Shown in pieces: positions 15,588 to 44,043 of a DNA stretch of 44,866 nucleotides; position 1 is the first letter of the stretch; each line of letters starts with the position of its first letter. The translations under genes were made by a program, and so were the position numbers. Origin of the DNA: a virus (lineage: Duplodnaviria; Heunggongvirae; Uroviricota; Caudoviricetes); the IMG/VR virus record IMGVR_UViG_2579778842_000011, positions 1 to 44,866 of that record; one strand, written 5' to 3'. The notes below the pieces were generated by a model that searched no databases, had not been told where the DNA came from, and saw only the letters and a program-made list of their open reading frames with translations.

Positions 15588-17492
15588 ATGAAACTGATTT
15601 CAAATAAGGCCAAATTAAAAAAGATTCTCAGAAATATCTCTGCTGCAATTCGCCCACCTAAAGCCATGAAGCCTAGCGAATGGGTAGAGGCTAATGTAGT
15701 TGCAACCGATGGTGTTAAAGCCGGATCGCTAATTAAATTGCATCCCTTCCAACGTGGAATGATGGACGCGATCACCGAAGACCGTAGAAAAATTGTGTTT
15801 AAATGTTCGGCACAGTTGGGTAAGACCATGATTCTTAACGGAATTATCTTCCATCGGATCGCGAGTAACCCTACTAATATTGGGGTCTTGCAAAGTAACG
15901 TTAGGGAACTAAATTCTTGGATCGCTGGTAAGGTGAAGCCAGTATTAGAGGCAACGCCAGAATTAAAAGCGATGATCACCGACAAATCAGACCGTAATGC
16001 TGTTAACAACTCATCGATTATTCAGCTTCGTAATGGATCATTCATGTATTTCATGTCGCTGAACAGTCCATCACACTTGCGCGGTAAGACACTCCCTTTG
16101 ATTATTCTTGATGAAGTTGATGCGGCTGATGAATCAGACGAAGGGAACCCGATCCAGCTAGCGGAACAACGCGCAACCACTTTCGGGGAAGATGCAAGGA
16201 TCGTAATTGCTTCCACTCCAACCGCTCGTGATGGGGCGATTAACCAACAATGGGAACTCTCGGATAAGAGAAAATATCATGTCGTTTGCCAGCATTGCGG
16301 ACACAAGCACGTAATGGAATGGAGTAACGTACATTTCGATTGGCATACGATTAACGGTAAATCATTACCCAACCCAGATACAGCCGTTTACCGTTGCCCT
16401 GAATGTGAAACCGATTGGACCGAAGGGGATCGCCTCCGTGCTGTTGCTCAGGGAGAATGGGTCGCCACCGAACCAAATGCGGAAGTAATCGGTTTTCATG
16501 CTAACCGCCTTATGTCTCCGTTTAGTTCTATCCGTGCGTGTGTGGTGGACTTTGCTGATAGCTACGCGAATATGTCCCTGGCAACGTTCTACAATACAGT
16601 CCTCGGTGAAACCTTCGATGATCTTAACGAAGATCGCACAGCCGACGAACTGGAAACGCTGAAAACTGATATTAGCCTAGACAATATTCCTGATGATGTA
16701 CTGGCTCTGGTAGGTGGAGTTGACCAGCAAAAAGACCGTCTGGAATCTACCTTGCTGGGTATTTCTCGTAAAGGGCTATGCGTAGTTGATCACCGATCAT
16801 TCTATGATGTGAACTGCGAACGCCACGAATCACCAGCATATAACCAGCTTTACAACTTCCTGAAAGCTAAATTCTATACCCGATCCGGTGAACGAATCCC
16901 GATGTTATCTGCTTTCGTGGACTCATCGAACGGACGAGCTACAAACGTGATCTATCGATTCTGTAGTCGGTGGCAAAATCTAACCGCCATTAAAGGCGCA
17001 AGCAATGTTGATGCACCAATCCTTCCGGTAAAAGACACAAGAACGGGTGGTTTTACCCTTAAAATTCTGGGCGTAAACAACCTTAAAACGATGATCCGTG
17101 AAATGATTAACCGGAACTTGAGAGATGGCGATCCTCACACTGTCTTCCAGATTGGTGACGTTCCTGATGACTATTGCGAGCAATTGCTTTCTGAACAGTT
17201 GAAACGGCAGGGTAATACCACACGTTGGGTAAAAGTTGGACAAACACGAAACGAAGCGTTGGACTGCCTGGCTTATTCCTATGCTGCTTCTCGTCATGTA
17301 CTCAATAAAATGTCATGGGAAAAACTCGAAGCCATCAAAGATAGTTTGAACCGTGAACCAGAAGAATCCGTAGAAGCTCCTAAATCGCAATCTAACGAGC
17401 AAATCGAAGAAACTAAGCCAATCACACGACCACAACGTAAAAACATCGCCAGACGCCCAAATAGAGGCCGTAGCTGGGTAACATCGTTCTAA
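15588..17492 (+). CDS. Terminase large subunit (lambda GpA family)
   Basis: 634 aa; Walker-type segments; C-terminal WVKVGQTRNEALDCLAYSYAA resembles recalled lambda gpA RNEALDCFVYALAA. Confidence 0.85.
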   Translation: MKLISNKAKLKKILRNISAAIRPPKAMKPSEWVEANVVATDGVKAGSLIKLHPFQRGMMDAITEDRRKIVFKCSAQLGKTMILNGIIFHRIASNPTNIGVLQSNVRELNSWIAGKVKPVLEATPELKAMITDKSDRNAVNNSSIIQLRNGSFMYFMSLNSPSHLRGKTLPLIILDEVDAADESDEGNPIQLAEQRATTFGEDARIVIASTPTARDGAINQQWELSDKRKYHVVCQHCGHKHVMEWSNVHFDWHTINGKSLPNPDTAVYRCPECETDWTEGDRLRAVAQGEWVATEPNAEVIGFHANRLMSPFSSIRACVVDFADSYANMSLATFYNTVLGETFDDLNEDRTADELETLKTDISLDNIPDDVLALVGGVDQQKDRLESTLLGISRKGLCVVDHRSFYDVNCERHESPAYNQLYNFLKAKFYTRSGERIPMLSAFVDSSNGRATNVIYRFCSRWQNLTAIKGASNVDAPILPVKDTRTGGFTLKILGVNNLKTMIREMINRNLRDGDPHTVFQIGDVPDDYCEQLLSEQLKRQGNTTRWVKVGQTRNEALDCLAYSYAASRHVLNKMSWEKLEAIKDSLNREPEESVEAPKSQSNEQIEETKPITRPQRKNIARRPNRGRSWVTSF

Positions 17493-19626: not shown

Positions 19627-21630
19627 ATGCTTAAATTTCGCCGCGATCTTAACGGTTACGGTGGAGTTATTAACGAAGGGCATAACGATCAATACGAATT
19701 TGAAATTGCTTTCTCAAGTACACAGCCTTATCAGCGCCAATTTTGGGATGAGCAAAATCAAGAAATGGTGGTATTAGATGAAATTCTGGTACATACACCG
19801 GAAGCGGTTGATCTGTCTCGTCTGAATAATAACGCTCCGTTGCTGTTCAATCATAATTTCGATAATCATATTGGTGTCGTTTGTAACGCTCGAATCGATG
19901 CGGATAACGTAGGTCGTGCTCTGGTTAAATTCTCTAAGCATGGCACTTTGGCTAATGATATTCGCAATAAAGTCATTGAAGGTACGATGGAAAAAATATC
20001 GGTCGGCTATGACATTAAAGAGTATCACATCGACTACGCTAAATCGCAACTCATTGTTTCTAAATGGATTCCGCACGAAATTTCGTGGGTCACGGTCCCG
20101 GCGGACGATTCGGTCGGTTTAAATCGCTCTCTAAATACTATCACAGTTAATTTGGGGGCTAAACGCGATATGACTAAAGAACAAATCGAAGAAATCAAAG
20201 AAGAACAAGAATCCGCTCAGGTTGAAGAAACTCCGGTAGAAGAAAATAAAGAACCGGAAGTTGAAGAAACTCAAGAGCGCCAAGTTGAAGAGAATAAAGA
20301 AGATGAAAATCTCGAAGACGGAAAAGACGCTAAACATCCTGAAAGTGTTGATGATGATAGTTCAACTGTTCGGGAAGAAGAAGAAGTAAAAGAAGAACGT
20401 GAAGCCGCTCCGGTTGAAGAAGAAAAAATCGAAGAAGTGGCTGAACGTTCCGAAGAAGACGAATTAGAAATTCGCGAAATTGCACGCGAACTAAATATTG
20501 ATGACTCTGAATTAGCACGCGCATTGGCAATTAAAGACATGACGCCGGAAGCATTCCGCACTAAGGCGCTAAATAACATTACCAATGTTCAACGTAATAA
20601 CGAACAAATTAAGGACTCTAAAATGGAAAAAACTTTCGATCTTAATAACGTAATCCGCTCCCTGGTAGATGGCGACGTGCTCGGCGCTAACGAAGCTGAA
20701 TATTCCGCAATGGCTGCTACTGCAACTATGCAGCGTGGTCGTGCTGCTCGCGGTGGCTCTGTATTCGTTCCGGCTGCTGCTATGCGTGCTGCTTCTGCTG
20801 GTAACACCAAAGCCGACCTGACCGCTATCACTGACGAAAAACTGATGACTGAATCCTACATCGAAATGCTGATGCCGGAATCTGTTCTGGGTCGTCTGGG
20901 TGTGACTGTTTACAGTGGCTTGAACTCCCCGACCGCTATTCCAAAAATGACTAAATCCAGCGTTGACGCTTTCGGCTTCGTTGATGAAAACGGTGCTGCA
21001 CCGGAAAGCAAAGCTGAATTTGCGAACGTGAAACTGTCTCCTAAGACGTTTGCTGGTGGGAACCCGATCAGCAGAGCGAGCCTAAAAACCGTACCCGGCA
21101 TCGCTTCCCTGATCACTGATCACATTAACAAAGCTGTTCGCATCAAACTGGAACAACTGATTCTGTCTGATAAAGCTAACGACCGTGGTCCGGCTGGTCT
21201 GGTTAAGCAACTGGTAGACGCTAACCGCGTTACCAAGAAAGCTGCTTTCTCTTACAAAGACTTCCTGAAAGAAATTGCAGCACTGACCGACGCTGGCGTT
21301 CCTGCTCAGGCGATCAAGTTTGCGATGAGCGGTGCAACTGCTGCTGAACTGGAATCTACCCTGAAAGATAACGGCGTTTCCGGTTATATCATCGAAAACG
21401 GCAAACTGGCTGGTTACGAAGTAGTTACTTCTGGCGTTATTCCGGCAGACCACATCGTTCTGGGTGACTTCTCCGGTATTACCATCGGTGAGTGGGGCGG
21501 TCTGGAACTGGATATGGATCTAACTACATACCGTGACCGTGGTGCGGTAGTGCCTCGTATCTTTGTAGATTTGGACTACGTTGTAGCACAGCCGGAAGCT
21601 CTGAAAGTTCTGAAAATTGGCGAAGAGTGA
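19627..21630 (+). CDS. Prohead protease - acidic linker/scaffold - major capsid protein fusion (HK97-like)
   Basis: 667 aa; N-terminal ~170 aa with prohead-protease-like motifs (LLFNHNFDNHIGVV, ISWVTVPADDS); E/K-rich linker; C-terminal ~330 aa capsid-like; ends at UGA 21628-21630. Confidence 0.7.
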   Translation: MLKFRRDLNGYGGVINEGHNDQYEFEIAFSSTQPYQRQFWDEQNQEMVVLDEILVHTPEAVDLSRLNNNAPLLFNHNFDNHIGVVCNARIDADNVGRALVKFSKHGTLANDIRNKVIEGTMEKISVGYDIKEYHIDYAKSQLIVSKWIPHEISWVTVPADDSVGLNRSLNTITVNLGAKRDMTKEQIEEIKEEQESAQVEETPVEENKEPEVEETQERQVEENKEDENLEDGKDAKHPESVDDDSSTVREEEEVKEEREAAPVEEEKIEEVAERSEEDELEIREIARELNIDDSELARALAIKDMTPEAFRTKALNNITNVQRNNEQIKDSKMEKTFDLNNVIRSLVDGDVLGANEAEYSAMAATATMQRGRAARGGSVFVPAAAMRAASAGNTKADLTAITDEKLMTESYIEMLMPESVLGRLGVTVYSGLNSPTAIPKMTKSSVDAFGFVDENGAAPESKAEFANVKLSPKTFAGGNPISRASLKTVPGIASLITDHINKAVRIKLEQLILSDKANDRGPAGLVKQLVDANRVTKKAAFSYKDFLKEIAALTDAGVPAQAIKFAMSGATAAELESTLKDNGVSGYIIENGKLAGYEVVTSGVIPADHIVLGDFSGITIGEWGGLELDMDLTTYRDRGAVVPRIFVDLDYVVAQPEALKVLKIGEE

Positions 21631-21717
21631 AATAACGAAGAATTGCCGGAAGAAATTCCGGTAGTTACGGCGAAAGCCACAGCTAAAAAGGTGGGACGTC
21701 CACCGAAAGCAAAATAA
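21631..21717 (+). other. In-frame 28-codon extension downstream of the capsid UGA stop (putative readthrough product)
   Basis: NNEELPEEIPVVTAKATAKKVGRPPKAK then TAA; shares NEELP and VVTAKATAK with the extension after the major tail gene. Confidence 0.45.
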
Positions 21718-21723
21718 TAATTA

Positions 21724-21749
21724 GCCCTGCCTAACGGTGGGGCTTTTTT
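21724..21749 (+). terminator. Rho-independent terminator after the capsid gene
   Basis: GCCCTGCC-TAAC-GGTGGGGC (two G-U pairs) followed by TTTTTT. Confidence 0.7.
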
Positions 21750-21780: not shown

Positions 21781-22071
21781 ATGTTCAAATTATCAGAATC
21801 ACAATTATCAAGAATGTTTAAAAGTGCTCCTGTATTTTCGGTGGAAGGTGGTAAATCAATTCGTGCTTATCATGAAATTACTACTACCGACGAACAAGGG
21901 GTAATGACAGAGACAGAATTTTTATTTTGTCGTGAGGGAGACTTAAAGCAGGGTGATATTGTCATTGTAGAAAATCAGCGTTTCAAAGTTCAATACGTTA
22001 AGCGCAATGGTGACAATACAACTGATTGCTTTATCACTCTGGCAGGGGGTACACATGCTCGCTACCGTTAA
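21781..22071 (+). CDS. Putative head completion / head-tail adaptor protein
   Basis: 96 aa; AAGGGGGG RBS; position after capsid gene. Confidence 0.4.
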   Translation: MFKLSESQLSRMFKSAPVFSVEGGKSIRAYHEITTTDEQGVMTETEFLFCREGDLKQGDIVIVENQRFKVQYVKRNGDNTTDCFITLAGGTHARYR

Positions 22072-22477
22072 TAACATGCCGAGACTGAAAATCAAACGCG
22101 CCTTGCAAGATATTATCGAACAAGATTTAGGTCTGGCTTTAAACGTAGAACAAACTCAGCAAGGCTTTAGTGATGATGTGGTTTGTTGGATCACCGGAAT
22201 GAATGAGACTTACACTAGGGTCCGTGGTGGTAATGCAATGCAAGCTGAATGCGTTATCGAAATGCAATTATATTCTCAGATTCATGAAACCAAAATTCAT
22301 GAGGGTATTTGCCAGATAATCCAGATTCAGCCGGATAACCCACGTTTTAAAGATTTGGGCTTCTCTATTTCAGATATCACTCCAGTAGCTTCTAATACCG
22401 ATTATGACGATGATTCTAGTGATGGGGGTATCGTTGGGACACTTAGCCTTAAATTTTCTTATCTAGCGCGTTTTTAA
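22055..22477 (+). CDS. Putative head-tail joining protein
   Basis: ORF 22007..22477; ATG 22055 has GGGGG 5 nt upstream; overlaps end of previous gene; start uncertain (alternative 22076). Confidence 0.35.
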   Translation: MLATVNNMPRLKIKRALQDIIEQDLGLALNVEQTQQGFSDDVVCWITGMNETYTRVRGGNAMQAECVIEMQLYSQIHETKIHEGICQIIQIQPDNPRFKDLGFSISDITPVASNTDYDDDSSDGGIVGTLSLKFSYLARF

Positions 22478-22486
22478 GGGGTAATA

Positions 22487-23320
22487 ATGAATATTACACA
22501 AGATAACTTAGATATTTTCACTGGATCACATGTTGAAGTGTCGATCTCTAACCAGATAGACAATCAGGTCGACTTTTTCGATCCTAGCTTTAGTTCTATG
22601 GAGAACATCGCAGCATTCCCTACGCTAACCGAATCCACAGAGATAGAAACTCTGGAAGAGTACGATCAGGACGCTACGGGGAAACTTGCTGGTTATCGTA
22701 GACTGGAACCGACAACACTCACATTAAACCGTGTTCTTGACGATGAACATCAAGCAATGTTGATGAAAGCGGTAGAGGATAAAACACCTTTACGCTTCCG
22801 TATGTTCTATGTTGTGAACTCTGGCTATAGTGCTGCTAACACAGGGTACTTTTGTATATTCGATGCTTACGTCACATCACATAAAACCCGTGGTAGTGAT
22901 AACAAAGCTGTAACACTGGAATTTAAACTTGAACCAGATGGCGGGATTTTGGCAAGGGGTATTGCTACCGAAGGTAAGATCTTACGTCAGGGTGATTTTG
23001 GTATTGGTGCTGGTGTACATCCATTTACAGGGGGTATAGACGACACAGCATTAGCCGGAAACCGTTTCGTAACTTACAAGGGAACTGCTAGCGGCAATCC
23101 ATATTCAACCGACACAGCATTAATTCACCTTCAAGCTAATGAGCATGGCGCATGGCAATTAACCTGTAATACTTCTGGCGCACCGCGTTTACGTGTCCGA
23201 AATATTCAGGAAAACGGTCGTTCTGAATGGATCAAGGTATATTCCACCAATGAGAAACCGACACCTAGCGAAATTGGCGCAGTGGCTAAGACTGACCGGA
23301 TCGATTTCGGCGAATACTAA
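22487..23320 (+). CDS. Putative neck/tail-associated protein with fiber-like C-terminal motif
   Basis: 277 aa; C-terminal NEKPTPSEIGAVAKTD resembles DKPTPGEIGAYTKAE in the downstream fiber. Confidence 0.4.
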   Translation: MNITQDNLDIFTGSHVEVSISNQIDNQVDFFDPSFSSMENIAAFPTLTESTEIETLEEYDQDATGKLAGYRRLEPTTLTLNRVLDDEHQAMLMKAVEDKTPLRFRMFYVVNSGYSAANTGYFCIFDAYVTSHKTRGSDNKAVTLEFKLEPDGGILARGIATEGKILRQGDFGIGAGVHPFTGGIDDTALAGNRFVTYKGTASGNPYSTDTALIHLQANEHGAWQLTCNTSGAPRLRVRNIQENGRSEWIKVYSTNEKPTPSEIGAVAKTDRIDFGEY

Positions 23321-23399
23321 GGATTCTCCTACCTAAATAAAACATGAACGTTGGGAGGTTAACGCCTCCCTTATTCCTGTTTTATAGTGAGGTGATTCG

Positions 23400-26300
23400 A
23401 TGCAGTCGATCCAATTTAAACGCACACAAACGGCTGGTAAAAAACCAACGCCGGAACAATTATCACAGGGTGAAATCGCCTTACAACTGGCGGACCATGT
23501 GATTTACACCAAAGATAAAAATAATAACGTAGTCCAAATTAGTGTTTCTCCAGAAAAACACGCTGAACTGAATACGAAAGTAGACACCAACAAGGTCAAT
23601 ACAGATAAAGTCATTTCAGCAAATAAAACCGAAGCCGCTAATAATCTGGCTAGTGCTAAAGCTGAACTTAATCAGACTATCACTTCTACCCGTGATGCTC
23701 TCAATGCTTCAATCACTGCTGGCGACACCGCAGCCAACAAACGAATTGATGCTTTGACTACCACAGTAGGTAACAATAAAACCGAAGCGGCTAACGCTCT
23801 GGCGGCTGCTAAGACTGAACTGAATCAGACTATTACTTCAACCCGCGATACTATCAACGCAACAATTAACAAGAACAAGACAGATATTAATGCACGAGTT
23901 GATCAGACTAATACCAACGTTACTAACTTAACGAATAATATCGCAGCAAATAAATCAGCAATAGAAAAGACGGTAGCGGATAATAAGAAAGATGCGGACA
24001 CGAAGATCACCAATCTTACTAGTACGGTCTCTGCGAATAAGACATCCATTGAAAGAACTGTTGCAAATAACAAGGCCAGTGCCGATGCCGCAATTGCCGC
24101 AGCTAATCAGCGAATTGATTCTATTGAAGGTAGTGCCGATGCTGCTTACATCAAGAAGAATACCAACACTTACCATCACGGCTATCTGTTAACCAAAACA
24201 GCTAACTATTTGGAAGACCAGACAGCGAGAGATCTTAACTACTTTGGTGCTTTCCGTACCAATGGTCAAGATGGACTCATGGATCTAACTCTTAACGTTC
24301 CTCACTCTGCCGGCAAAGCGCACGGTCGCGGATTTACTTTCCGTTATGCGTCTGGTGGATCTCGTGTTGAAACCTATGGTTTTGATAGAGAAGGACAGAA
24401 GAACTTTAGCTATAAGATGTATCACGAAGGTGATAAGCCGACTCCTGGCGAAATCGGTGCATACACTAAAGCAGAAGTTGACAAGATGTTTGTTAAAAAC
24501 GTCACTATGTCTGTTCCTAATTCTAGCGAAAACGTATCTGCATATTTCAAATTGGCAACCGCAACAATTCCACAAAACGGGCGTAGTGTGTTTTTCCGTA
24601 TTCATGGTGGTAATGGTTACAACGTTACGGCATATGACCAAGTTGATGTAGTAGAAATTCTTCTCCGTAGTGGTAACGATAGACCTAAAGGACTTAACGT
24701 AGTTGCATATCGTCGAAATACCGTCAAAGATTTTGATGTATTTGCCGTCAATACATCCGGTGATAACTATGACATTTATGTGAAATATCAGCGTTACACT
24801 GATAACGTTATTGTTGAATTTGGTAAAAGTGTTTATGTTAATCTGACTGTTCACGATACACCGGAAGCCACGTTAATTAAACCTTCTGTTGGTGTTATTG
24901 ATGGGCGCATCATTACTCTATTCAATACAGAAAACAAACGAGGTGTGTTGAGTTTTGACGATAACCCACAAAATAGTTATGATATTGTTCACTTGAGTAA
25001 TGATAGGGGTACTGGACGAAAATATATTCGTAAATTCCGTAGCAACTATAACGAAATGATCTGGCATGAGACGGTTCAAGGTTCTACTTATCGACTCGCC
25101 ACGGGTAGTACAGATGCCCAGGAGATTCTATCCGTTGAATCTAGTAGCTCTATTGCTGGGACTCATAAAGGTAATATTCTTTCTGGTCGAATGATGTTGG
25201 GTGGCGGTAGTAATGTTATTACCTTGCGGCGTCCTGCTGGTCAATCCAACCATATTACGTTTCAAGATAATCGGACTGGATCTATTACCCGTCAAGGGTG
25301 GATCGGTTATGGTAATGCTGATACTAACGTTTTTGAATGGTATAGTGATGTAGGTGGCAGTTCTATTCGTCACCACATCGACGGACAGATCGAACTTGCA
25401 ACCGGTAACACAAAACGCGTTTATACTAACGCTCAATTCATCTCAATGAATAGCGACGCCTACCGTATGCTCTATGGTAATTATGGTGCATTCTGGCGTA
25501 ATGACGGCGTTAAAGTTTATCTTCTTTCTACTGCCGAAAATGATAAATTGGGCGGATGGAATACTTATCGTCCATTCATTTATGATTTAACTTCCGGCAA
25601 CGTTCAATTAGGCGGTGATGGTAACGAAGATGCATTAACGTTAGAACGTGCTTCTCGTGCCGCTCGCTTTAGTAATGACGTTTACATTAAGAAAGGGCAT
25701 TTGACTTTCGACGCTGGGCGATTAAATTCCCGCGATTATTTCCGGTTTAACCATTGGGGTGATAGCAATAACGGTCGCGATAACATCCTACAGATTGAAG
25801 ACAGTCAGGGCGCACATTTTATCACTGAACGTGCTATGGGTACTGGTAACATAACAACACGTTTTAGAGGCTTTGTACGTGTAGAATCTGGTGAAATTGC
25901 ATTTGATGCTAACCGTGGTTCTTCTTCGCAATTTAGTCTCCATACATGGGGTAACGAGCAACGCAAACAGGTTTTTGAATGTAAGGATGCTACAAGTTAT
26001 CACTGGTATACTGAACGTACTCAGGGTGGCACTGGACCTATTCTGTTCTCTATGGCGGGTAGTCTAAACGTTGCTAGCAATATCACAACAACTGGTGCTG
26101 ATATTACGTTTAAACGCGCTGGCAATAAGCACATCTGGTTTAGAGATCCAAACGGTTTAGAGTTGGGCTTGATGTATTGCGATGACGCTGGTGTTATTCG
26201 CTTCCGTGGTGAGAAACAAACCGAAGTCTGGAAATTCGGCGGTAAGATGATTCACCTTGAAACGGGCACTGTATCCGGTGGCGGTAATGGTCTTATTCGT

Positions 26301-26918
26301 GGTAGCGTTGCTGGTGGTAGTTGGGCTAGCTGGCGTGATCGTGCTTCTGGTATTCAGGTCGACTGTCAACAATCAACCGATTCCGCTCATAACGTATGGA
26401 AAGCAACCCATCAAGGTAAATATCATATCGCAGCAATGGGTGTACATGTTCCTAGCGGTACTATCGGTAATGCTATGGTTCAACTTCATGTTCATGATAC
26501 CAACTTTATCTTTAACGCTGCTGGTGATTTTACCGCAGGTCGTAACGGTAGCTTTAACGATGTTTACATTCGCTCTGACTCTCGTCTGAAAATTAACAAG
26601 GAAGAATTACAGGACGGTGCATTAGAGAAAGTAAACTCCTTGAAAGTCTACACCTACGATAAAGTTAAATCTCTTTCTGATGACACGGTAATTAAACGCG
26701 AAGTCGGTATTATTGCTCAGGATCTGGAAGAAGTATTGCCGGAAGCAGTAGGTATTCAATCCACCGAAGATCCAGAAAATCCAGAAGCAATTAAGACGAT
26801 TTCTAACTCCGCTGTTAATGCCTTGATTATTAAAGCTATTCAGGAAATGGACGCCAAATATAAAGCCCAGATCGAAGCATTACAGAAAGAAATTGCCGAA
26901 CTCAAAGCAACTAAATAA
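23400..26918 (+). CDS. Tail fiber protein with C-terminal intramolecular chaperone (peptidase S74-like) domain
   Basis: 1172 aa; repetitive N-terminal Ala/Asn/Thr-rich segment; C-terminal SDSRLKINKEELQDGALEKVNSLKVYTYDK...coiled coil typical of self-cleaving fiber chaperone domains. Confidence 0.75.
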   Translation: MQSIQFKRTQTAGKKPTPEQLSQGEIALQLADHVIYTKDKNNNVVQISVSPEKHAELNTKVDTNKVNTDKVISANKTEAANNLASAKAELNQTITSTRDALNASITAGDTAANKRIDALTTTVGNNKTEAANALAAAKTELNQTITSTRDTINATINKNKTDINARVDQTNTNVTNLTNNIAANKSAIEKTVADNKKDADTKITNLTSTVSANKTSIERTVANNKASADAAIAAANQRIDSIEGSADAAYIKKNTNTYHHGYLLTKTANYLEDQTARDLNYFGAFRTNGQDGLMDLTLNVPHSAGKAHGRGFTFRYASGGSRVETYGFDREGQKNFSYKMYHEGDKPTPGEIGAYTKAEVDKMFVKNVTMSVPNSSENVSAYFKLATATIPQNGRSVFFRIHGGNGYNVTAYDQVDVVEILLRSGNDRPKGLNVVAYRRNTVKDFDVFAVNTSGDNYDIYVKYQRYTDNVIVEFGKSVYVNLTVHDTPEATLIKPSVGVIDGRIITLFNTENKRGVLSFDDNPQNSYDIVHLSNDRGTGRKYIRKFRSNYNEMIWHETVQGSTYRLATGSTDAQEILSVESSSSIAGTHKGNILSGRMMLGGGSNVITLRRPAGQSNHITFQDNRTGSITRQGWIGYGNADTNVFEWYSDVGGSSIRHHIDGQIELATGNTKRVYTNAQFISMNSDAYRMLYGNYGAFWRNDGVKVYLLSTAENDKLGGWNTYRPFIYDLTSGNVQLGGDGNEDALTLERASRAARFSNDVYIKKGHLTFDAGRLNSRDYFRFNHWGDSNNGRDNILQIEDSQGAHFITERAMGTGNITTRFRGFVRVESGEIAFDANRGSSSQFSLHTWGNEQRKQVFECKDATSYHWYTERTQGGTGPILFSMAGSLNVASNITTTGADITFKRAGNKHIWFRDPNGLELGLMYCDDAGVIRFRGEKQTEVWKFGGKMIHLETGTVSGGGNGLIRGSVAGGSWASWRDRASGIQVDCQQSTDSAHNVWKATHQGKYHIAAMGVHVPSGTIGNAMVQLHVHDTNFIFNAAGDFTAGRNGSFNDVYIRSDSRLKINKEELQDGALEKVNSLKVYTYDKVKSLSDDTVIKREVGIIAQDLEEVLPEAVGIQSTEDPENPEAIKTISNSAVNALIIKAIQEMDAKYKAQIEALQKEIAELKATK

Positions 26919-26973
26919 TAAAAGTCGGGGGACTAGTTCCCCCGTAATAACAATTTAATTAAGGGGTAATTCT

Positions 26974-27450
26974 ATGTCTCAGCAATTTAAAGATATTTTT
27001 ACTGGTGGTCTGGTAAGTCTGTTCTATCACGCCGATACCACTAACACCGCTCTCAACCATGAGGGCTATGAAGAAATTAAAGAGTGCGCCGGATTCCCGG
27101 AAACTGGTATCGAACGCGGTACTGTAGAAGTTAAATCCTTCTCTTCTCAGTATAACCGTAAACTGGTAGGGAAGCTGAACGTTCCTGATCTGACTCTGAC
27201 CGTTAACTACATCCCAGGCGATGCGGTACATGAAAAACTGATCAAAGCTGCCGAAGATGGTACTCGAATCCAGATTAAAGTAGAGTATTACGTATCAGCG
27301 GATAAGCAGACTGGTATTCGCACCGCTTTCAACGGCTTCATTTCTAAAGTTGCTATGAACGGTGGCGATGAAGAAGTGGTAACTAAAGAGTTTACCTTTG
27401 CAGTGGACGGCAAACCGCTGAAACAGGAAATCTTCAATACTGCCGGATGA
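26974..27450 (+). CDS. Major tail (tube) protein
   Basis: 158 aa; AAGGGGTAA RBS; position before chaperone pair and tape measure; strong terminator after it; ends at UGA 27448-27450. Confidence 0.55.
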   Translation: MSQQFKDIFTGGLVSLFYHADTTNTALNHEGYEEIKECAGFPETGIERGTVEVKSFSSQYNRKLVGKLNVPDLTLTVNYIPGDAVHEKLIKAAEDGTRIQIKVEYYVSADKQTGIRTAFNGFISKVAMNGGDEEVVTKEFTFAVDGKPLKQEIFNTAG

Positions 27451-27576
27451 ACTAACGAAGAACTTCCTTTAATAGAACCGGAACCACAGCCGGAACATGA
27501 AGCGGTGGTGATTCCAGAATTAGAGGTTGTTACGGCGAAAGCCACAGCTAAACGAAGCCGCAAGGCTAAAGATTAA
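27451..27576 (+). other. In-frame 41-codon extension downstream of the major tail UGA stop (putative readthrough product)
   Basis: TNEELPLIEPEPQPEHEAVVIPELEVVTAKATAKRSRKAKD then TAA; 24-nt block GTTACGGCGAAAGCCACAGCTAAA identical to that after the capsid gene. Confidence 0.45.
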
Positions 27577-27582
27577 TTATAA

Positions 27583-27608
27583 GCCCTGCCTTAATGGTGG
27601 GGCTTTTT
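27583..27608 (+). terminator. Rho-independent terminator after the major tail gene
   Basis: GCCCTGCC-TTAAT-GGTGGGGC followed by TTTTT; same stem sequence as the terminator at 21724. Confidence 0.7.
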
Positions 27609-38835: not shown

Positions 38836-40326
38836 TTATATAGCAATGGTTTTAGTTGCATAGCTGAACTTGTCGGTTAGATAATAGCGGATTCTCTCAA
38901 GTGCATGTTTTACCGCATAATTTTTATGCTTGACTTTTCCGTTACGACCGAATATACACAGATGATCTATAAGATCCCAGACCGTTGCAATATCCTTAGA
39001 ACCATGTTTACGCAATGCACGACCGATACTCTGACGAACGATAGTTGATTCCTTCACTGGATGACCGAAAATAACATGGTGCAAATTCTTAATTGAAACA
39101 CCAGTAGAGAACACACCATAGGATGCAACACAAATGATCCCTGTTTCCCCTTCCGCTAATTTCTTAAATTCATCACGTTCTTCTGTCTTAACTCCACCGT
39201 CAATATAATAAACCTTGTCGTGTACCTTCTGTAACGCATCATACATAAGTTTTCCGTGCTTAGTATTGCGGAACATCAGGAATACGTTTTCGCCCTTCTT
39301 AGCGAGTTTTAGCGCCAAATTACAAGCAAACTTATTTCGTCGTGGGTTAGACGTAATATACTTGATCTCTTCCGCATATTCCCGCCCCTTAACCGCGCTA
39401 CATTCCTCATCGGTATAACGAAGGAAAAGGCAGTTAATTTTCAGTTTTGTCACTTGACCTTCTTCCATCAGGCGGTCAATACTCACGATCTTAGAAATAT
39501 CACCGAAAAGCCCGACGTACTGCATTAAATGGCACTTTGATTCTTTCGGGGAACCAGTCATACCGATTTTGAACTGGCAATGATTCATTCCGTTAATGAT
39601 ATTGGTAATATTTTTGGCACTAGCCTTATGTGATTCATCAACTATCAACATTCCATATTGTTTGAACCATTCAGGAGGCATCTTGCAAGCTGATTGCCAG
39701 GTACTAACCGTGATTAACCTGTCTCCCGGATGTTTCCCGCTACCACTCATCATTGTATGAATTGCTTCATAAGGGAATAGCCTATAATCGACAAAATCAT
39801 CCCTCATTTGAACCACCAGCGATGTAGTAGGGACAATGATTAGAACTTTTCCGGTGTAGTTCTCTAAGTACCAACGAGACAGCATACAAGCAATCAATGA
39901 CTTACCCGCACTGGTAGGAAGAACCAGCATTCTACGGCGATTATGAATACCCTGAAAGACTGCCTCCCTTTGATACCAGTAAGGATTGATTTTATTGGAA
40001 CCGGAATACACTTCTAGGGAATCAATCCATTCATTAATCGCGTCTTTGGTTACATCTTCCTTCTCAAGCAATCTGGGGTCAATCCAGACTGAATAGCCCA
40101 TATTTTTAACGAAGACACCCAACGTTTTTAATAGTCCAATTGGTAGGGTGTTTTCATGCGTAAACAGTCTTATTCGTCCATCCCAGCCAGAATACTTGTA
40201 ACGGGGGCTAAACCTAGCCCCTTCAACCTCAAACGAGAAATAATCTCTTAATTCCATTCCGATAGAAGGAGAGCAATCAACCTTAACGAAACTGTAATCT
40301 TGAAAATGAATTTTAATATCTTGCAT
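38836..40326 (-). CDS. SF2 DExH helicase, T4 UvsW-like
   Basis: ATG at 40326 overlapping upstream stop (TAATG); N-terminus MQDIKIHFQDYSFVKVDC and whole length resemble recalled T4 UvsW; motifs LPTSAGKSL, DESH, QSIGRALRKHG. Confidence 0.8.
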   Translation of the reverse strand: MQDIKIHFQDYSFVKVDCSPSIGMELRDYFSFEVEGARFSPRYKYSGWDGRIRLFTHENTLPIGLLKTLGVFVKNMGYSVWIDPRLLEKEDVTKDAINEWIDSLEVYSGSNKINPYWYQREAVFQGIHNRRRMLVLPTSAGKSLIACMLSRWYLENYTGKVLIIVPTTSLVVQMRDDFVDYRLFPYEAIHTMMSGSGKHPGDRLITVSTWQSACKMPPEWFKQYGMLIVDESHKASAKNITNIINGMNHCQFKIGMTGSPKESKCHLMQYVGLFGDISKIVSIDRLMEEGQVTKLKINCLFLRYTDEECSAVKGREYAEEIKYITSNPRRNKFACNLALKLAKKGENVFLMFRNTKHGKLMYDALQKVHDKVYYIDGGVKTEERDEFKKLAEGETGIICVASYGVFSTGVSIKNLHHVIFGHPVKESTIVRQSIGRALRKHGSKDIATVWDLIDHLCIFGRNGKVKHKNYAVKHALERIRYYLTDKFSYATKTIAI

Positions 40327-40895
40327 TAGTTCCACTCCACACTTGCAATATTCTTTATATTGTTTAGTGATTTATTGCAGTAGTGGAATGTTTCAGTTTT
40401 GCCGTATTCAATCCCGCCTATACCCACATCCAGTAATCTCTTTATTGCTCTTTCAGTGGCTAAAGCATGTTTCATTGATGGCATTTCACCAGCAAAGACA
40501 ATATCAAAGTTATGACCGGGATTGCGTACACCCAGATTAATGCGTCGCTTGATGATTGACTTTGTTACACCAAATTTACCAATATCCCCTGATTTCATTA
40601 CATAGAGATAAGGCACACCCGCTTTATATTGAAAGTAATCACTTTTGAGACATGCACAGCGTTTACCTTCATTAAGCAGGTTGGTAGCTGATTTGTCGGC
40701 TCTATTGCCGCATCGGGTACATGTAAGAGCAATTCTTGAATGAAGCCCTTTAAACTCACCCAGAAAGCCATGAAAGACTAATGGTAAGTCCTTATCTTTG
40801 ATGTGAGTCAGAATGCGTTGTTCTAATGCCGATGGAGTTACAGCACGGGAGGATTTAGGAGTAAAAACAATATCTTTAGCCATTACTGGAATCAT
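40326..40895 (-). CDS. Zinc-ribbon + T5orf172/GIY-YIG-like domain protein
   Basis: 189 aa; GAGG RBS; CTRCGN...CAC Cys cluster; YLYVMKSGDIGKFGVTK...R...E pattern. Confidence 0.5.
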   Translation of the reverse strand: MIPVMAKDIVFTPKSSRAVTPSALEQRILTHIKDKDLPLVFHGFLGEFKGLHSRIALTCTRCGNRADKSATNLLNEGKRCACLKSDYFQYKAGVPYLYVMKSGDIGKFGVTKSIIKRRINLGVRNPGHNFDIVFAGEMPSMKHALATERAIKRLLDVGIGGIEYGKTETFHYCNKSLNNIKNIASVEWN

Positions 40896-41017
40896 ATAGA
40901 CCTCACTTTTTTAACTTATAGGCATAACCTCAATATGGTTGGTTTGGGATTTAGGGTCGCGTATTATACACATTCAGATAGAGAATGCAATAGTAAGACA
41001 ATTTTCTCTAATAAATA

Positions 41018-41036
41018 GTAGTGAGCTTATTATTTT
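41018..41036 (+). promoter_or_regulatory. Variant copy of the recurrent 17-mer (TAATAAATAGTAGTGAGC) upstream of gene 41050
   Basis: Similarity to the copies at 9204, 11159 and 12437. Confidence 0.3.
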
Positions 41037-41049
41037 AGAGGAAACTACT

Positions 41050-42225
41050 ATGAAACTTGCTTACGCTGCCGAAATTCCTTTTGTTAAGAAAACTCGCGGT
41101 TTATCACCGGAAGAGTACCAACAACGAATCATCGCTAAACTGGAACCTGCTTTCGTATTTGGTGGATTTATCCTACCGTGGAAGGGTAATCACACTTACT
41201 TTCGAATCTACAATTTAGACACACAAGAATATAAGGACTACAAATTACGCAAACTGGAAGATACTAACGGGGGTGAGTTATTCCAGACTGAAAAGGCTGT
41301 ATGGTTGAAAATGGAATCTCGTTGTAATGAGAAGGGAAAGAAATTCCTCGGATGGCAAGGAGAATGGAAAGGGCGAAATAGAACGAAAGCCCGTGTTTTG
41401 TGCCCTGAACACAATCAAATCATGACGCCATCTCTATTACATGCTCTCAAAGATGATTTCGATTTTGATTGCAAAATCTGTATGGCTGAAAAATCCCAAC
41501 GGGTAAGAAGTGGCAAGACTTTTGATGAAGTTATTAAGGACAAAGAGACAATCATCAATGCACGTTGCGAGAGTACGCCTTACACCTTCAAAGGATTCAT
41601 CATAAACACCCCACACCTAAAGGATGTTAAATTTAAAACCTATTGCAAGACACATAACCACGAATGGGAATCTCATTTAAGATGTGCTGATTCTTTCACT
41701 TGTCCGCTTTGCATTAAAGACCAACTGGTGCAACTGTCTAACCGGACTTATCAGGGTAAGGCTAGTTTCTACATTCAATTATTAGATGACAAATTTATTA
41801 AATTTGGAATCACTACCCGGAAACCAGAAGAACGAATGAGAGAGCAAACCAGAAAGAGCAACTTCACTCACCGCTTAATCTTTACTCATGAGTTTGAGGA
41901 TGGTTGGAAAGCCGTTGATTTAGAGCATGAAGTAAAACAACGCTTCAAGACTCATGCAGCACCCTACAAAGATTTCAAGGATGGATGGTCGGAAACTCTG
42001 ACTATTGATGAGTTACCACACTTACAGCAACTGGTTTATGACTACCTAACCAATCAACCGGACGAGGCTAATATGTGGGTATCCCCGAAAGATGTATTTG
42101 ATGACGATACATTCAAGCTACATACTCACTTCTACGGCATCAATAAACCGGAATTTTTCTGTATTGATGACGACAGTCCTGATTTAATGGATGAATACTT
42201 TAATACGCTCTTAGACGCTGCCTAA
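41050..42225 (+). CDS. Paralogous protein with two Cys/His zinc-ribbon modules and C-terminal T5orf172/GIY-YIG-like domain
   Basis: ATG 41050 after AGAGGA (track ORF begins upstream without RBS); CPEHN...CKIC and CKTHNHEW...CPLC; FYIQLLDDKFIKFGITTRK. Confidence 0.45.
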   Translation: MKLAYAAEIPFVKKTRGLSPEEYQQRIIAKLEPAFVFGGFILPWKGNHTYFRIYNLDTQEYKDYKLRKLEDTNGGELFQTEKAVWLKMESRCNEKGKKFLGWQGEWKGRNRTKARVLCPEHNQIMTPSLLHALKDDFDFDCKICMAEKSQRVRSGKTFDEVIKDKETIINARCESTPYTFKGFIINTPHLKDVKFKTYCKTHNHEWESHLRCADSFTCPLCIKDQLVQLSNRTYQGKASFYIQLLDDKFIKFGITTRKPEERMREQTRKSNFTHRLIFTHEFEDGWKAVDLEHEVKQRFKTHAAPYKDFKDGWSETLTIDELPHLQQLVYDYLTNQPDEANMWVSPKDVFDDDTFKLHTHFYGINKPEFFCIDDDSPDLMDEYFNTLLDAA

Positions 42226-42242
42226 CGCAATTAAATTAAAAA

Positions 42243-42271
42243 GGGGTACATCTGTACCCCTTAACTGTTTT
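42243..42271. terminator. Hairpin terminator between convergent genes
   Basis: GGGGTACA-TC-TGTACCCC inverted repeat flanked by A-run and T-rich tail. Confidence 0.5.
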
Positions 42272-42298
42272 AGCTCGTTATACGTCGATTTAGGCCGC

Positions 42299-43978: not shown

Positions 43979-44043
43979 ACCATTTCCAAACAAAAACGCC
44001 CCTACCGTGTATTATAACGATAGGGGCATTGGTTAGTAAGTCA

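What the first reader, a model, noticed from the sequence alone, without database searches (positions are those of the whole stretch)
22487..26918. Second fiber with self-cleaving chaperone domain, sharing a KPTPxEIGA motif with the upstream 277-aa protein
The 1172-aa fiber ends in a peptidase S74-like intramolecular chaperone domain (SDSRLKINKEEL...), and its N-terminal third contains tandemly duplicated Ala/Asn/Thr-rich segments visible at the DNA level (about 23620-23880). The preceding 277-aa gene ends with NEKPTPSEIGAVAKTD, closely matching DKPTPGEIGAYTKAE inside the fiber, suggesting a shared attachment or recombination module. Both genes sit between the head-completion genes and the major tail gene, an unusual position that hints at a neck/collar fiber.
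Basis: partly seen in the sequence, partly recalled or inferred. Interest (0 to 1): 0.45.

Follow-up and report, generated by a model that had tools for sequence, protein, structure and literature searches.

The report
T4-type fibre on lambda-like tail
An E. coli prophage with a lambda-like tail carries a long fibre taken almost whole from T4-like phages, and seems to anchor it with an extra tail-tube protein copy that ends in the same 'plug' T4-like phages use to join fibre segments.

Summary
ORFs 22487-23320 (277 aa) and 23400-26918 (1172 aa) exist. The fibre ends in a Peptidase_S74 chaperone domain, a 92-nt segment is duplicated 153 nt apart, and both proteins carry KPTPxEIGA.

The interpretation needs revising. 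Fibre residues 262-1169 are 79% identical to gp37, the distal long-tail-fibre subunit of RB49/Phi1-type T4-like phages. Residues 1-51 match the gp37 N-terminus, which binds gp36. Residues 52-261 are an inserted Ala/Thr/Asn-rich stretch.

The 277-aa protein is a paralog of the real tail tube gene (26974-27450), with a lambda gpV-like fold. It carries a fibre knob that ends, residue for residue, like gp36 (…IDFGEY*). Relatives fuse this tube domain to 340-1209 aa of fibre.

A gp38-type adhesin gene (27624-28130) lies after the tube gene and is found with gp37-type fibres.

KPTPxEIGA is a generic fibre module-boundary motif. The likely joint is adaptor C-terminus to fibre N-terminus.

The tail terminator is a separate gene (22055-22477), so a neck position is unproven. 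I rate it a new variant of a known kind, of moderate interest.

The parts
22055..22477 (+). Tail terminator (lambda gpU-like), 140 aa. This is context: it shows that the 277-aa protein is not the terminator.
   Evidence: AF2 model from 9 sequences, mean pLDDT 76.9. Foldseek PDB hits are tail terminators: lambda gpU 3fzb/8iyd, NF5 neck, T5 p142, the T1 terminator and the monocin cap, with E from 3e-6 to 1e-3.
22487..22963 (+). Adaptor protein, residues 1-159: a tail-tube-fold domain, paralogous to the tube gene 26974-27450.
   Evidence: BLASTP against the 158-aa tube protein gives 27% identity over 158 residues, E 4e-12. It matches phrog_158 'major tail protein' at E 1.3e-8. In the AF2 model pLDDT is 70-95 over most of residues 10-160, with dips at 53-69 and 113-115. 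The top Foldseek hits are lambda gpV (7t4f, 8iyk; E 8e-8) and other tail tubes.
22964..23317 (+). Adaptor protein, residues 160-277: a fibre knob domain that ends in KPTPSEIGA (23255-23281) and the gp36-type C-terminal plug RIDFGEY (23297-23317).
   Evidence: It aligns end to end with the C-terminus of Phi1 gp36: BLASTP 32% identity, E 2e-5; hhalign probability 95.8%, E 8e-9, aligned to the last residue of both. A profile search recovers a Phi1-type gp36 (P0224) at E 4.4e-5 in a library of 1.8 billion proteins. All 35 viral-contig relatives end in [IV]DFG[EYK][YF]*. AF2 confidence for this domain is low as a monomer.
23400..23552 (+). Fibre residues 1-51: the gp37-type N-terminal joint domain (IQFKRT…GEIALQLADHVIYTKD), proposed to dock on the adaptor's C-terminus.
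   Evidence: 39% identical to Phi1 gp37 residues 4-54. The same domain starts T2 gp37 and every fibre that follows an adaptor in L002-L004, L006, L007 and DCP80. It is the only conserved part of the fibre among E. coli relatives; conservation stops at about nt 23593.
23553..24182 (+). Fibre residues 52-261: an Ala/Thr/Asn-rich insertion, probably helical, absent from phage gp37. It contains the 92-nt duplication (23622-23713 and 23775-23866).
   Evidence: Direct repeat with 80% identity and 153-nt spacing. Composition. There is a weak Apolipoprotein (amphipathic helix) match at residues 69-217. In a Proteus relative the equivalent segment is a separate 198-aa protein that ends in MDFGTF*. The helical or coiled-coil nature is inferred and was not tested.
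24183..26573 (+). Fibre residues 262-1058: the gp37 (T-even distal long-tail-fibre) shaft and tip. It includes KPTPGEIGA (24435-24461) and a Gp34_trimer-type domain (25377-25583), and ends in DVYIR, the predicted gp38 docking surface.
   Evidence: About 81% nucleotide identity to gp37 of Phi1, ECD7, RB49 and JSE over window 24183-26867. 79% amino-acid identity over 917 aligned positions with Phi1 gp37 residues 71-978. Pfam Gp34_trimer at E 2.7e-23. DVYIR|SD matches the cleavage and docking motif described for S16- and fPS-type gp37 (PMC7917993).
26574..26918 (+). Fibre residues 1059-1172: the S74 intramolecular chaperone domain. Cleavage is predicted between R1058 and S1059; SDSRLK supplies Ser1059 and Lys1064.
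   Evidence: Pfam PF13884 at E 5.2e-14. Motif position. The cleavage-site analogy comes from PMC7917993. Cleavage itself was not tested.
26974..27450 (+). Tail tube protein (158 aa), taken to be the major one. It lies inside the variable fibre cassette.
   Evidence: Pfam Phage_TTP_11 at 29.0 bits (cut-off 28.4), and phrog_158 at E 3.8e-21. It sits directly upstream of the chaperone genes G/T and the tape measure gene. It is only 57% identical in amino acids (66% in nucleotides) to the tube gene of relatives that lack gp38, while the flanks are 87% and 97% identical in nucleotides.
27624..28130 (+). gp38-type tail fibre adhesin (168 aa from the ATG at 27624). It has the N-terminal gp37-attachment domain with both conserved Trp residues, and a C-terminal domain that is not polyglycine-rich.
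   Evidence: Pfam Gp38_N at E 4e-15 and phrog_1121 'tail fiber adhesin' at E 1.9e-33. 48% identical to T2 gp38 over residues 4-55, including the GW and RW positions. The best full-length matches are in Stx phage 75/02, annotated 'tail fiber adhesine' (44%), and in CMS-2020a, an unannotated record (42%). It is present in 19 of 5426 E. coli genomes. All 18 genomes with a gp37-type distal fibre have it, and relatives with other fibres lack it.

Best explanation
The locus encodes a side fibre for a lambda-like siphovirus prophage of E. coli, built from T-even long-tail-fibre parts and mounted on a tail tube paralog.

(1) The 277-aa protein is an adaptor. Its N-terminal domain has the tail tube fold and presumably takes a place in, or on, the tube as a ring. 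Its C-terminal 118 residues form a fibre knob that ends in the same C-terminal plug as gp36 (…KPTPxEIGAV…IDFGEY*).

(2) The 1172-aa fibre is a gp37. Its N-terminal 51-residue joint domain docks onto the trimerised gp36-like end of the adaptor, as gp37 docks on gp36 in T-even phages. A 210-residue Ala/Thr/Asn-rich spacer lengthens it. The remaining ~800 residues are a Krischvirus-type gp37 shaft and tip.

(3) The C-terminal S74 chaperone domain folds the trimer and cuts itself off after DVYIR (R1058|S1059).

(4) The gp38-type adhesin encoded two genes downstream then caps the exposed tip and binds the receptor.

Shown here: the homologies, the folds, the conserved gene order, the end-to-end gp36 match, and the co-occurrence of gp38 with gp37-type fibres. 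Inferred: the physical docking, the cleavage, the number of fibres (two trimers per hexameric ring would fit), and the position of the adaptor ring along the tail, which stays open.
For: The fibre is a gp37. It shows 81% nucleotide and 79% amino-acid identity to Phi1 gp37 from residue 262 on, and 39% identity over the N-terminal joint domain. S74 domain.

The adaptor has a tube fold. It is a paralog of the 158-aa tube protein, and Foldseek matches it to lambda gpV and other tail tubes.

The adaptor's C-terminus resembles that of gp36: BLASTP E 2e-5, hhalign probability 95.8% aligned to the last residue, and a profile hit to a Phi1-type gp36 in the whole library.

The chain rule holds at seven junctions in six kinds of locus. 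A protein ending in xD[FL]Gx[FYE]* is followed by one starting with the IQFKR…GE[IL]A domain. These are T2 and Phi1 gp36→gp37, the window, L007, DCP80, and Proteus L006, where the chain is adaptor → 198-aa connector (ends MDFGTF*) → 675-aa gp37-like protein. It also holds in 35 of 35 close viral-contig relatives.

Family members fuse the same tube-like domain to 340-1209 aa of fibre. P0094 contains a Pfam Phage_T4_gp36 domain above the cut-off. P0126 is a complete fibre with no separate fibre gene. Gene order is conserved in E. coli, Proteus and other genomes.

gp38: the Gp38_N domain, both Trp residues, and the DVYIR|SD docking motif. It occurs in 18 of 18 genomes with a gp37-type distal fibre and is absent from relatives with pyocin-knob fibres.

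The literature states that the C-terminal end of gp36 binds the N-terminal end of gp37, with stoichiometry 3:3 (PMC9603124).
Against: No physical evidence exists; no isolated phage with this architecture has been characterised. In 50,697 phage records the only hit is DCP80.

The AF2 model of the adaptor's C-domain has low confidence (pLDDT below 50 for residues 162-233). No multimer prediction was possible, so docking is inferred from homology and gene adjacency only.

Adjacent genes are linked, so the pairing of adaptor-tail alleles with fibre N-terminus alleles is no proof of co-evolution.

Pfam finds neither a tube domain nor a gp36 domain in the 277-aa protein itself.

The gp38 gene is separated from the fibre gene by the tube gene, and its C-terminal domain is unlike the characterised T2/S16 adhesins.

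A hexameric tube ring must be reconciled with trimeric fibres. Which of the two tube-fold proteins is the major one is inferred, not shown.
Confidence: 0.7

Rival explanations
1. It is a neck or collar fibre. The adaptor ring would be the head-proximal ring of the tube, just under the terminator, and the fibres would hang from the neck like whiskers.
For: The gene order places the adaptor directly after the terminator gene and before the tube gene, and this order is conserved across genera. A weak, non-significant sequence resemblance links the knob domain to the chain labelled 'collar spike protein' in PDB entry 7kjk (E 0.55).
Against: The terminator is a separate protein. The adaptor is a duplicate of the tube gene, which by itself explains the position. 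A rough length estimate (inference) gives about 80-90 nm for the mature fibre and about 120-130 nm for a tail measured by an 809-aa tape measure. A neck-anchored fibre would then not reach the plane of the tail tip. Known receptor-binding side fibres of siphoviruses (T5, lambda) sit at the distal end (background knowledge). Nothing here measures the position.
Confidence: 0.25
2. The 277-aa protein is the major tail tube protein, with a C-terminal decoration domain like the Ig domain of lambda gpV. The 158-aa protein would be a minor tube paralog, and the fibre would attach somewhere else.
For: The top Foldseek hits are full-length lambda gpV, which is also a tube domain plus a C-terminal domain. 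Both proteins match phrog_158.
Against: The 158-aa protein scores better against tube families (Pfam above the cut-off; phrog_158 at 3.8e-21 against 1.3e-8) and holds the canonical place just before the chaperone and tape-measure genes. Homologs of the 277-aa protein carry up to 1050 further residues of fibre, which is implausible on every tube subunit. Its C-terminus matches the gp36 end that binds gp37. In the window and in L002, the 158-aa gene shares with the capsid gene a TGA, in-frame extension and terminator module, a parallel with the major capsid gene.
Confidence: 0.07
3. The shared KPTPxEIGA motif is mainly a recombination hot-spot: DNA microhomology used to shuffle fibre modules, with no structural role in joining these two proteins.
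For: The motif sits exactly where homology between the 277-aa protein and its longer relatives ends. It recurs at domain ends in gp36, gp37 and many other fibres. The last 25 residues of the adaptor are mosaic among E. coli alleles.
Against: Neither exchange boundary detected in this window lies at the motif. Relatives diverge at about nt 23593, which is fibre codon 65, and gp37 homology starts at nt 24183; the motifs are at 23255 and 24435. The motif is conserved at the protein level across very divergent DNA, which points to a structural role at the ends of knob domains. This rival is compatible with the best explanation and does not replace it.
Confidence: 0.3
4. The module is a decaying remnant in a defective prophage, and no fibre is assembled.
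For: Only prophage copies are known. One relative has its fibre gene interrupted by IS2 (H178).
Against: The reading frames are intact and the lengths conserved (275-281 aa) in E. coli, Salmonella, Shigella, Providencia, Edwardsiella and Proteus. The full structural gene set is present and syntenic. The pattern of conserved joints with variable distal fibre cassettes is typical of host-range selection.
Confidence: 0.05

Closest known systems
T2/S16-type distal long tail fibre of T-even phages (gp36-gp37-gp38), in particular gp37 of Krischvirus (RB49, Phi1, JSE, ECD7)
   Same: The gp37 shaft and tip are 79% identical in amino acids. The gp37 N-terminal joint domain is present. So are the S74 chaperone domain with the DVYIR|SD cleavage and docking motif, a gp38 adhesin with the N-terminal attachment domain and both Trp residues, and a gp36-type C-terminal plug on the upstream partner.
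   Different: There are no gp34, gp35 or full gp36 genes and no myovirus baseplate. The gp36 function is reduced to one knob plus the plug, fused to a tail tube domain. A 210-residue spacer is inserted after the joint domain. The gp38 C-terminal domain lacks the polyglycine-rich fold and resembles the adhesin annotated in Stx phage 75/02.
Phage T5 / DT57C L-shaped (lateral) tail fibres (pb1; LtfA/LtfB)
   Same: These are siphovirus side fibres with a C-terminal S74 intramolecular chaperone. In DT57C they are chains of fibre proteins joined head to tail (PMC4728585 abstract). Both phages add a side fibre to a central tip receptor-binding protein.
   Different: T5 fibres attach to a collar protein (p132) around the tube-tip junction (background knowledge), not to a tube paralog. 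There is no gp36/gp37 joint and no gp38-type adhesin. No sequence relationship was detected apart from the S74 domain.
Lambda side tail fibres Stf/Tfa
   Same: A lambdoid siphovirus with a J-type central fibre plus side fibres that share sequence with T-even gp37/gp38. This exchange is a long-known case of horizontal transfer (background knowledge).
   Different: In lambda the stf and tfa genes lie downstream of J (background knowledge). Here the fibre lies between two tube-fold genes upstream of the tape measure gene. Here the anchor is encoded as a tube-domain fusion, and the tip uses an S74 domain plus a gp38 adhesin where lambda uses a Tfa-type chaperone.
Tail tube proteins with C-terminal decoration domains (lambda gpV with its Ig-like domain)
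   Same: A tube fold followed by an extra C-terminal domain in one polypeptide. Full-length gpV is the best structural match.
   Different: Here the extra domain is a fibre knob with a gp36-type end, extended to more than 1000 residues in relatives. A second, plain tube gene is also present, so this protein is probably a minor, specialised ring.

Membership tests
Peptidase S74 / intramolecular chaperone tail fibres | Pfam PF13884 domain at the C-terminus, above the curated cut-off | tested here: met
   E 5.2e-14, 52.7 bits against a cut-off of 22, residues 1059-1117.
Peptidase S74 / intramolecular chaperone tail fibres | Ser-Lys catalytic pair in an S-D-x-R-L-K context at the start of the domain | tested here: met
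   SDSRLK at residues 1059-1064. It aligns with the S16 and fPS cleavage sites DLNVS^SDRRIKK and DVYIR^SDGRLKI (PMC7917993).
Peptidase S74 / intramolecular chaperone tail fibres | Autoproteolytic release of the domain after trimer folding | not testable with these tools
   This needs protein expression or virion mass spectrometry.
T-even gp37 (distal long tail fibre subunit) | Homology along the gp37 shaft and tip | tested here: met
   79% identity over 917 aligned positions with Phi1 gp37 residues 71-978. phrog_1699 'long tail fiber protein distal subunit' at E 3.7e-150.
T-even gp37 (distal long tail fibre subunit) | N-terminal domain that joins gp36 | tested here: met
   Residues 1-51 are 39% identical to Phi1 gp37 residues 4-54 and align with T2 gp37.
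T-even gp37 (distal long tail fibre subunit) | Part of a gp34-gp35-gp36-gp37 fibre on a myovirus baseplate | tested here: not met
   The window has no gp34 or gp35 genes. The tail genes are those of a siphovirus: tube, G/T chaperones, tape measure, distal tail protein and J.
gp38 adhesin (T2/S16 type) | Gp38_N attachment domain with conserved Trp residues | tested here: met
   Pfam PF21721 at E 4e-15, 56 bits against a cut-off of 25. 48% identity to T2 gp38 over residues 4-55, including PGW and RW.
gp38 adhesin (T2/S16 type) | Polyglycine-rich receptor-binding C-terminal domain | tested here: not met
   No similarity to T2 gp38 beyond residue 55. The full-length matches are to phrog_1121, Stx phage 75/02 and CMS-2020a.
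gp38 adhesin (T2/S16 type) | Functional pairing with a gp37 that exposes a docking tip after cleavage | tested here: inconclusive
   The DVYIR tip motif is present, and gp38 occurs in 18 of 18 genomes with a gp37-type distal fibre. Binding was not tested, and the tube gene lies between the two genes.
Siphovirus tail tube protein (lambda gpV-like), for the 277-aa protein | Tail tube fold | tested here: met
   Foldseek matches lambda gpV at E 8e-8, plus the 80alpha, monocin and SPP1 tubes. The N-domain pLDDT is 70-95 over most of residues 10-160.
Siphovirus tail tube protein (lambda gpV-like), for the 277-aa protein | Match to curated tube sequence families | tested here: not met
   No Pfam or NCBIfam hit. 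Only phrog_158 at E 1.3e-8 and a paralog match to the 158-aa tube protein.
Siphovirus tail tube protein (lambda gpV-like), for the 277-aa protein | Being the bulk subunit, encoded directly before the tail assembly chaperone genes | tested here: not met
   That position is held by the 158-aa gene 26974-27450. Copy number in virions cannot be tested here.
T4 gp36 (Pfam PF03903), for the 277-aa protein | Pfam Phage_T4_gp36 domain | tested here: not met
   No hit at E up to 1 in the 277-aa protein. It is met in the 1209-aa family member P0094 (28.8 bits against a cut-off of 26).
T4 gp36 (Pfam PF03903), for the 277-aa protein | C-terminal end that joins gp37 | tested here: met
   The evidence is sequence only. 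There is an end-to-end alignment with Krischvirus gp36, and T2 gp36 ends in DFGYY*. The binding itself was not tested.
Neck/collar fibres (whiskers) | Attachment at the head-tail junction | not testable with these tools
   Only gene order bears on this. The terminator is a separate gene.

The most novel reading that the evidence does not exclude
A specialised ring made of a tail tube paralog acts as a general socket for fibres on non-contractile tails. Because it ends in the gp36-type plug, any protein that starts with the gp37-type joint domain can be chained onto it, including whole distal half-fibres from virulent T4-like myoviruses with their gp38 adhesins. This would be a previously undescribed way of anchoring side fibres on a siphovirus. 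It would also be a direct route for host-range modules to pass between temperate siphoviruses and lytic myoviruses.
Probability: 0.55. Interest if true: 0.65.

Novelty: new variant of a known kind. Interest (0 to 1): 0.55.

Why it matters
The fibre parts are all known kinds: gp37, the S74 chaperone and the gp38 adhesin. Exchange of fibre genes between lambdoid and T-even phages has long been recognised. What appears undescribed is the anchor. It is a duplicated tail tube protein fused to the gp36-type end, found in about 1% of complete E. coli genomes and in Salmonella, Shigella, Proteus, Providencia and Edwardsiella, and annotated everywhere as hypothetical or as a generic phage tail protein.

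If the model holds, it explains why a fibre gene sits between two tube genes. It also gives a simple sequence rule for predicting which fibre proteins chain together: a C-terminal xDFGx[FY] end followed by an N-terminal IQFKR…GE[IL]A domain. And it offers a compact, portable handle for engineering T4-type receptor-binding fibres onto siphovirus tails or tailocins.

Tried and rejected
- Tandem Repeats Finder found no array at 23620-23880. The duplication showed up only with the pairwise repeat tool.
- Pfam and NCBIfam gave nothing for the 277-aa protein, even at E up to 1.
- A profile search of PDB sequences gave only a non-significant hit to a collar spike protein (E 0.55).
- AF2 on the monomer did not resolve the adaptor's C-domain.
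- I tested whether the 277-aa protein could be the missing tail terminator. I rejected this because the 140-aa neighbour has the gpU fold.
The single-sequence scan returned only close relatives. The chain rule was therefore not surveyed across distant phages.
- Association between adaptor-tail alleles and fibre N-terminus alleles was seen but set aside as evidence, since the two lie about 80 nt apart.
- Literature searches for tube-fused fibre anchors, for gp38 in siphoviruses and for capsid stop-codon readthrough found no description of this arrangement. The library is incomplete, so absence is weak evidence.
- KPTPxEIGA as a recombination point for this window was checked against the observed breakpoints and did not fit.

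Full report
**Setting.** The window holds a prophage of about 36 kb with a lambda-like order of structural genes. These are: large terminase (15588-17492); a small gene in the position of lambda W; portal; a fused protease-capsid gene (19627-21630); two head-tail genes; the two genes of the finding; a tail tube gene (26974-27450); the tail chaperones G/T; the tape measure gene (28864-31293); a distal tail protein; hub proteins; and a J-type central fibre with the lambda J receptor-binding domain (33023-36799). The closest sequences are E. coli chromosomes, for example strain MEI003 at 93.6% identity over 7.2 kb. The module occurs in 54-55 of 5426 complete E. coli genomes.

**Checking the observation.** Every descriptive statement holds. 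The ORF coordinates and lengths are right. Pfam Peptidase_S74 matches fibre residues 1059-1117 (E 5.2e-14), starting at SDSRLK. Two 92-nt copies at 23622-23713 and 23775-23866 are 80% identical and 153 nt apart. Tandem Repeats Finder did not report them, so this is an old two-copy duplication inside a 210-residue segment rich in Ala, Thr and Asn. The motifs NEKPTPSEIGA and DKPTPGEIGA are at nt 23255 and 24435, and the surrounding 42 residues align at 36% identity.

**What the fibre is.** From nt 24183 to 26867 the fibre gene is about 81% identical in DNA to gene 37 of the RB49/Phi1/JSE/ECD7 group of T4-like myoviruses (Krischvirus). Gene 37 encodes the distal long-tail-fibre subunit. At the protein level, residues 262-1169 are 79% identical to Phi1 gp37 residues 71-978. 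The first 51 residues are 39% identical to the Phi1 gp37 N-terminus. The protein is therefore a gp37 into which about 210 residues have been inserted just after the N-terminal domain.

A Proteus relative shows how this could have arisen. There the adaptor is followed by a 198-aa protein with the same N-terminal domain, an Ala/Thr/Asn-rich body and the C-terminal end MDFGTF*. That protein is followed in turn by a 675-aa gp37-like protein with its own N-terminal domain. The window's fibre looks like those two proteins fused, with the internal joint lost.

**The tip.** The fibre ends in …NDVYIR|SDSRLKI…. A paper on T4-like Yersinia phages describes the same arrangement. In S16 the last 113 residues, the intramolecular chaperone, are cleaved off at DLNVS^SDRRIKK. 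That site aligns with DVYIR^SDGRLKI in other gp37 proteins, and the exposed DVYIR surface takes the Trp 'prongs' of the gp38 adhesin (PMC7917993).

The window encodes such an adhesin at 27624-28130. It has the Pfam Gp38_N domain (E 4e-15) and matches phrog_1121 'tail fiber adhesin' (E 1.9e-33). It is 48% identical to T2 gp38 over residues 4-55, including both Trp residues. Its C-terminal part is not the polyglycine-rich domain of T2/S16. The best full-length matches are to Stx phage 75/02, where the gene is annotated 'tail fiber adhesine', and to the unannotated record CMS-2020a.

Among complete E. coli genomes, 19 have this gene. All 18 genomes whose fibre has the gp37-type distal part have it. 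The 19th has a partly related fibre. Relatives with other fibres, annotated as pyocin-knob S74 proteins, have no gene between the tube and chaperone genes. In Krischvirus phages gp38 is also unlinked from gene 37, so the separation seen here has a precedent.

**What the 277-aa protein is.** Residues 1-159 are a paralog of the 158-aa tube protein (27% identity, E 4e-12). Both match phrog_158 'major tail protein'. An AF2 model from 30 homologs is confident for this domain, and its best structural matches are lambda gpV and other tail tubes (E 8e-8 to 1e-4).

Residues 160-277 are a fibre knob. The key result is that they align to the very last residue with the C-terminus of Phi1 gp36: …VYSTNEKPTPSEIGAVAKTDRIDFGEY* against …LYHEGNKPTPADVGAVPLNAVIDFGTF*. 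BLASTP gives E 2e-5. A profile-profile comparison gives 95.8% probability. A profile of the domain retrieves a Phi1-type gp36 from 1.8 billion representatives at E 4.4e-5, again matched to the end. T2 gp36 ends in DFGYY*.

In T-even fibres the C-terminal end of gp36 binds the N-terminal end of gp37, trimer on trimer (PMC9603124). The window therefore places a gp36-type end directly upstream of a gp37-type start.

**The family.** The 277-aa form is conserved at 275-281 residues in E. coli, Shigella, Salmonella, Providencia, Edwardsiella and Proteus. It is nearly always annotated as hypothetical, with a few records calling it 'phage tail protein'. The profile search shows about 18 further representative clusters in which the same tube-like domain plus knob is the N-terminus of proteins of 342-1209 residues.

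P0094 (1209 aa) aligns with the window protein over residues 1-273 at 40% identity. It contains a Pfam Phage_T4_gp36 domain above the cut-off and ends in …FDEGTF*. It is followed by a 490-aa S74 fibre and then a tube gene. P0126 (971 aa) is a complete fibre fused to the tube-like domain, followed directly by the tube gene. The form in phage record DCP80 has 698 residues.

In all of these the gene order is terminator-like gene, tube-domain fibre anchor, optional further fibre genes, tube gene, chaperones. Among E. coli relatives only the first 65 or so codons of the fibre are conserved. The rest is exchanged.

**Mechanism proposed.** The adaptor sits in or on the tail as a ring through its tube domain. 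Its C-terminal knobs trimerise and present the gp36-type plug; this step is inferred, and two trimers per hexamer would fit. The fibre docks through its N-terminal joint domain. The S74 domain folds the trimer and cuts itself off. gp38 then caps the tip and binds the receptor, complementing the J-type central fibre.

The steps resting on tool results are the homologies, the folds, the synteny, the end-to-end match and the gp38 co-occurrence. Docking, cleavage, stoichiometry and position are inferences.

**Where on the tail.** I tested whether the 277-aa protein could be the terminator, since only two small genes lie between the capsid gene and it. The 140-aa gene 22055-22477 folds as a tail terminator (lambda gpU, T5 p142, T1 and others), so the adaptor is an additional tube-like component.

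Gene order would suit a ring next to the terminator. A rough estimate of lengths gives about 80-90 nm for the fibre against about 120-130 nm for the tail, and together with analogy to T5 and lambda side fibres this would suit the distal end. Neither argument is decisive, and I leave the position open.

**The KPTPxEIGA motif.** It is real, but it is a general end-of-knob motif of fibre proteins. There are four copies in Phi1 gp36 and one in Phi1 gp37, and several matched stretches in most of the 205 clusters found. It marks where the adaptor module ends relative to longer homologs. It is not where this window's exchanges took place. The specific pairing that the comparative data support is plug to joint domain, not motif to motif.

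**Novelty and limits.** Four literature searches found no description of a tube-fused fibre anchor or of this prophage group. The phage genome collection holds only one related record. The parts are known kinds, so I rate this a new variant of a known kind, of moderate interest. The main weakness is that nothing physical has been measured and no multimer model could be made.

Noticed in passing
window 21628-21744 and 27448-27605: The capsid gene and the 158-aa tube gene both end in TGA and are followed in frame by homologous short open extensions. After the capsid gene: NNEELPEEIPVVTAKATAKKVGRPPKAK. After the tube gene: TNEELPLIEPEPQPEHEAVVIPELEVVTAKATAKRSRKAKD. Each extension is followed by TAA and a nearly identical terminator hairpin (21723-21744; 27581-27605). 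In 28 of 28 viral-contig relatives where the capsid end could be located, the stop is TGA and a 28-45-codon extension stays in frame despite many sequence variants. It is acidic and Pro-rich at first and has a basic tail. This suggests programmed UGA readthrough that makes C-terminally extended capsid and tube proteins. One literature search found no description.
   Followed up: partly
window ~23594-28130: Compared with relatives that lack gp38 (L003, L004), the exchanged cassette includes the distal fibre, gp38 and also the tube gene. The tube gene is only 66% identical in nucleotides and 57% in amino acids, while the flanks are 87% (left) and 97% (right, starting exactly at 28130) identical. 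Why the tube allele travels with the fibre is unexplained.
   Followed up: partly
window 27594-27623: The longest ORF for the gp38-like gene starts at 27594, inside the terminator hairpin that follows the tube gene. The ATG at 27624 has a GGAG upstream and matches the RefSeq start in strain MEI003, so it is probably the real start.
   Followed up: yes
L001 (PQ671644.1, Escherichia phage DCP80, 1-18560): This 141-kb record is classified as a T4-like Gaprivervirus, yet it begins with a lambda-like structural module of this prophage family: terminase, portal, protease-capsid fusion, a 698-aa tube-domain fibre anchor, a 745-aa fibre, and the tube and tape-measure genes. That looks like a chimeric assembly or a remarkable hybrid.
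   Followed up: no
window 19627-21630: The prohead protease (Peptidase_S78, residues 40-162) and the major capsid protein (Phage_capsid, residues 409-664) are fused in one 667-aa ORF with an acidic linker. The fusion is conserved in the relatives.
   Followed up: no
window 38836-43993: The right end of the element carries several genes unusual for a lambda-like prophage: a UvsW-type helicase on the minus strand (Pfam UvsW_N, E 2e-34), two proteins with CapR-homology domains, and a large serine recombinase (42299-43993, minus strand). GC content falls from 0.56 to about 0.40 at roughly 6-8 kb, which probably marks the left prophage boundary.
   Followed up: no
NZ_CP035865.1 (E. coli E275 a), hit H178: In this relative the fibre gene region carries an IS2 insertion and the gp38 gene is absent. 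It is a natural knock-out that could serve as a fibreless comparison.
   Followed up: no
adaptor residues ~253-277 (window 23243-23317) across E. coli alleles: The last 25 residues of the adaptor are mosaic among otherwise similar alleles (…KPTPSEIGAVAKTDRIDFGEY, …RPTAQDVGAVSITARVDFGEY, …KPTAAELEVVSIHDRIDFGYY). They mostly pair with particular fibre N-terminus alleles. Linkage alone could explain this.
   Followed up: partly
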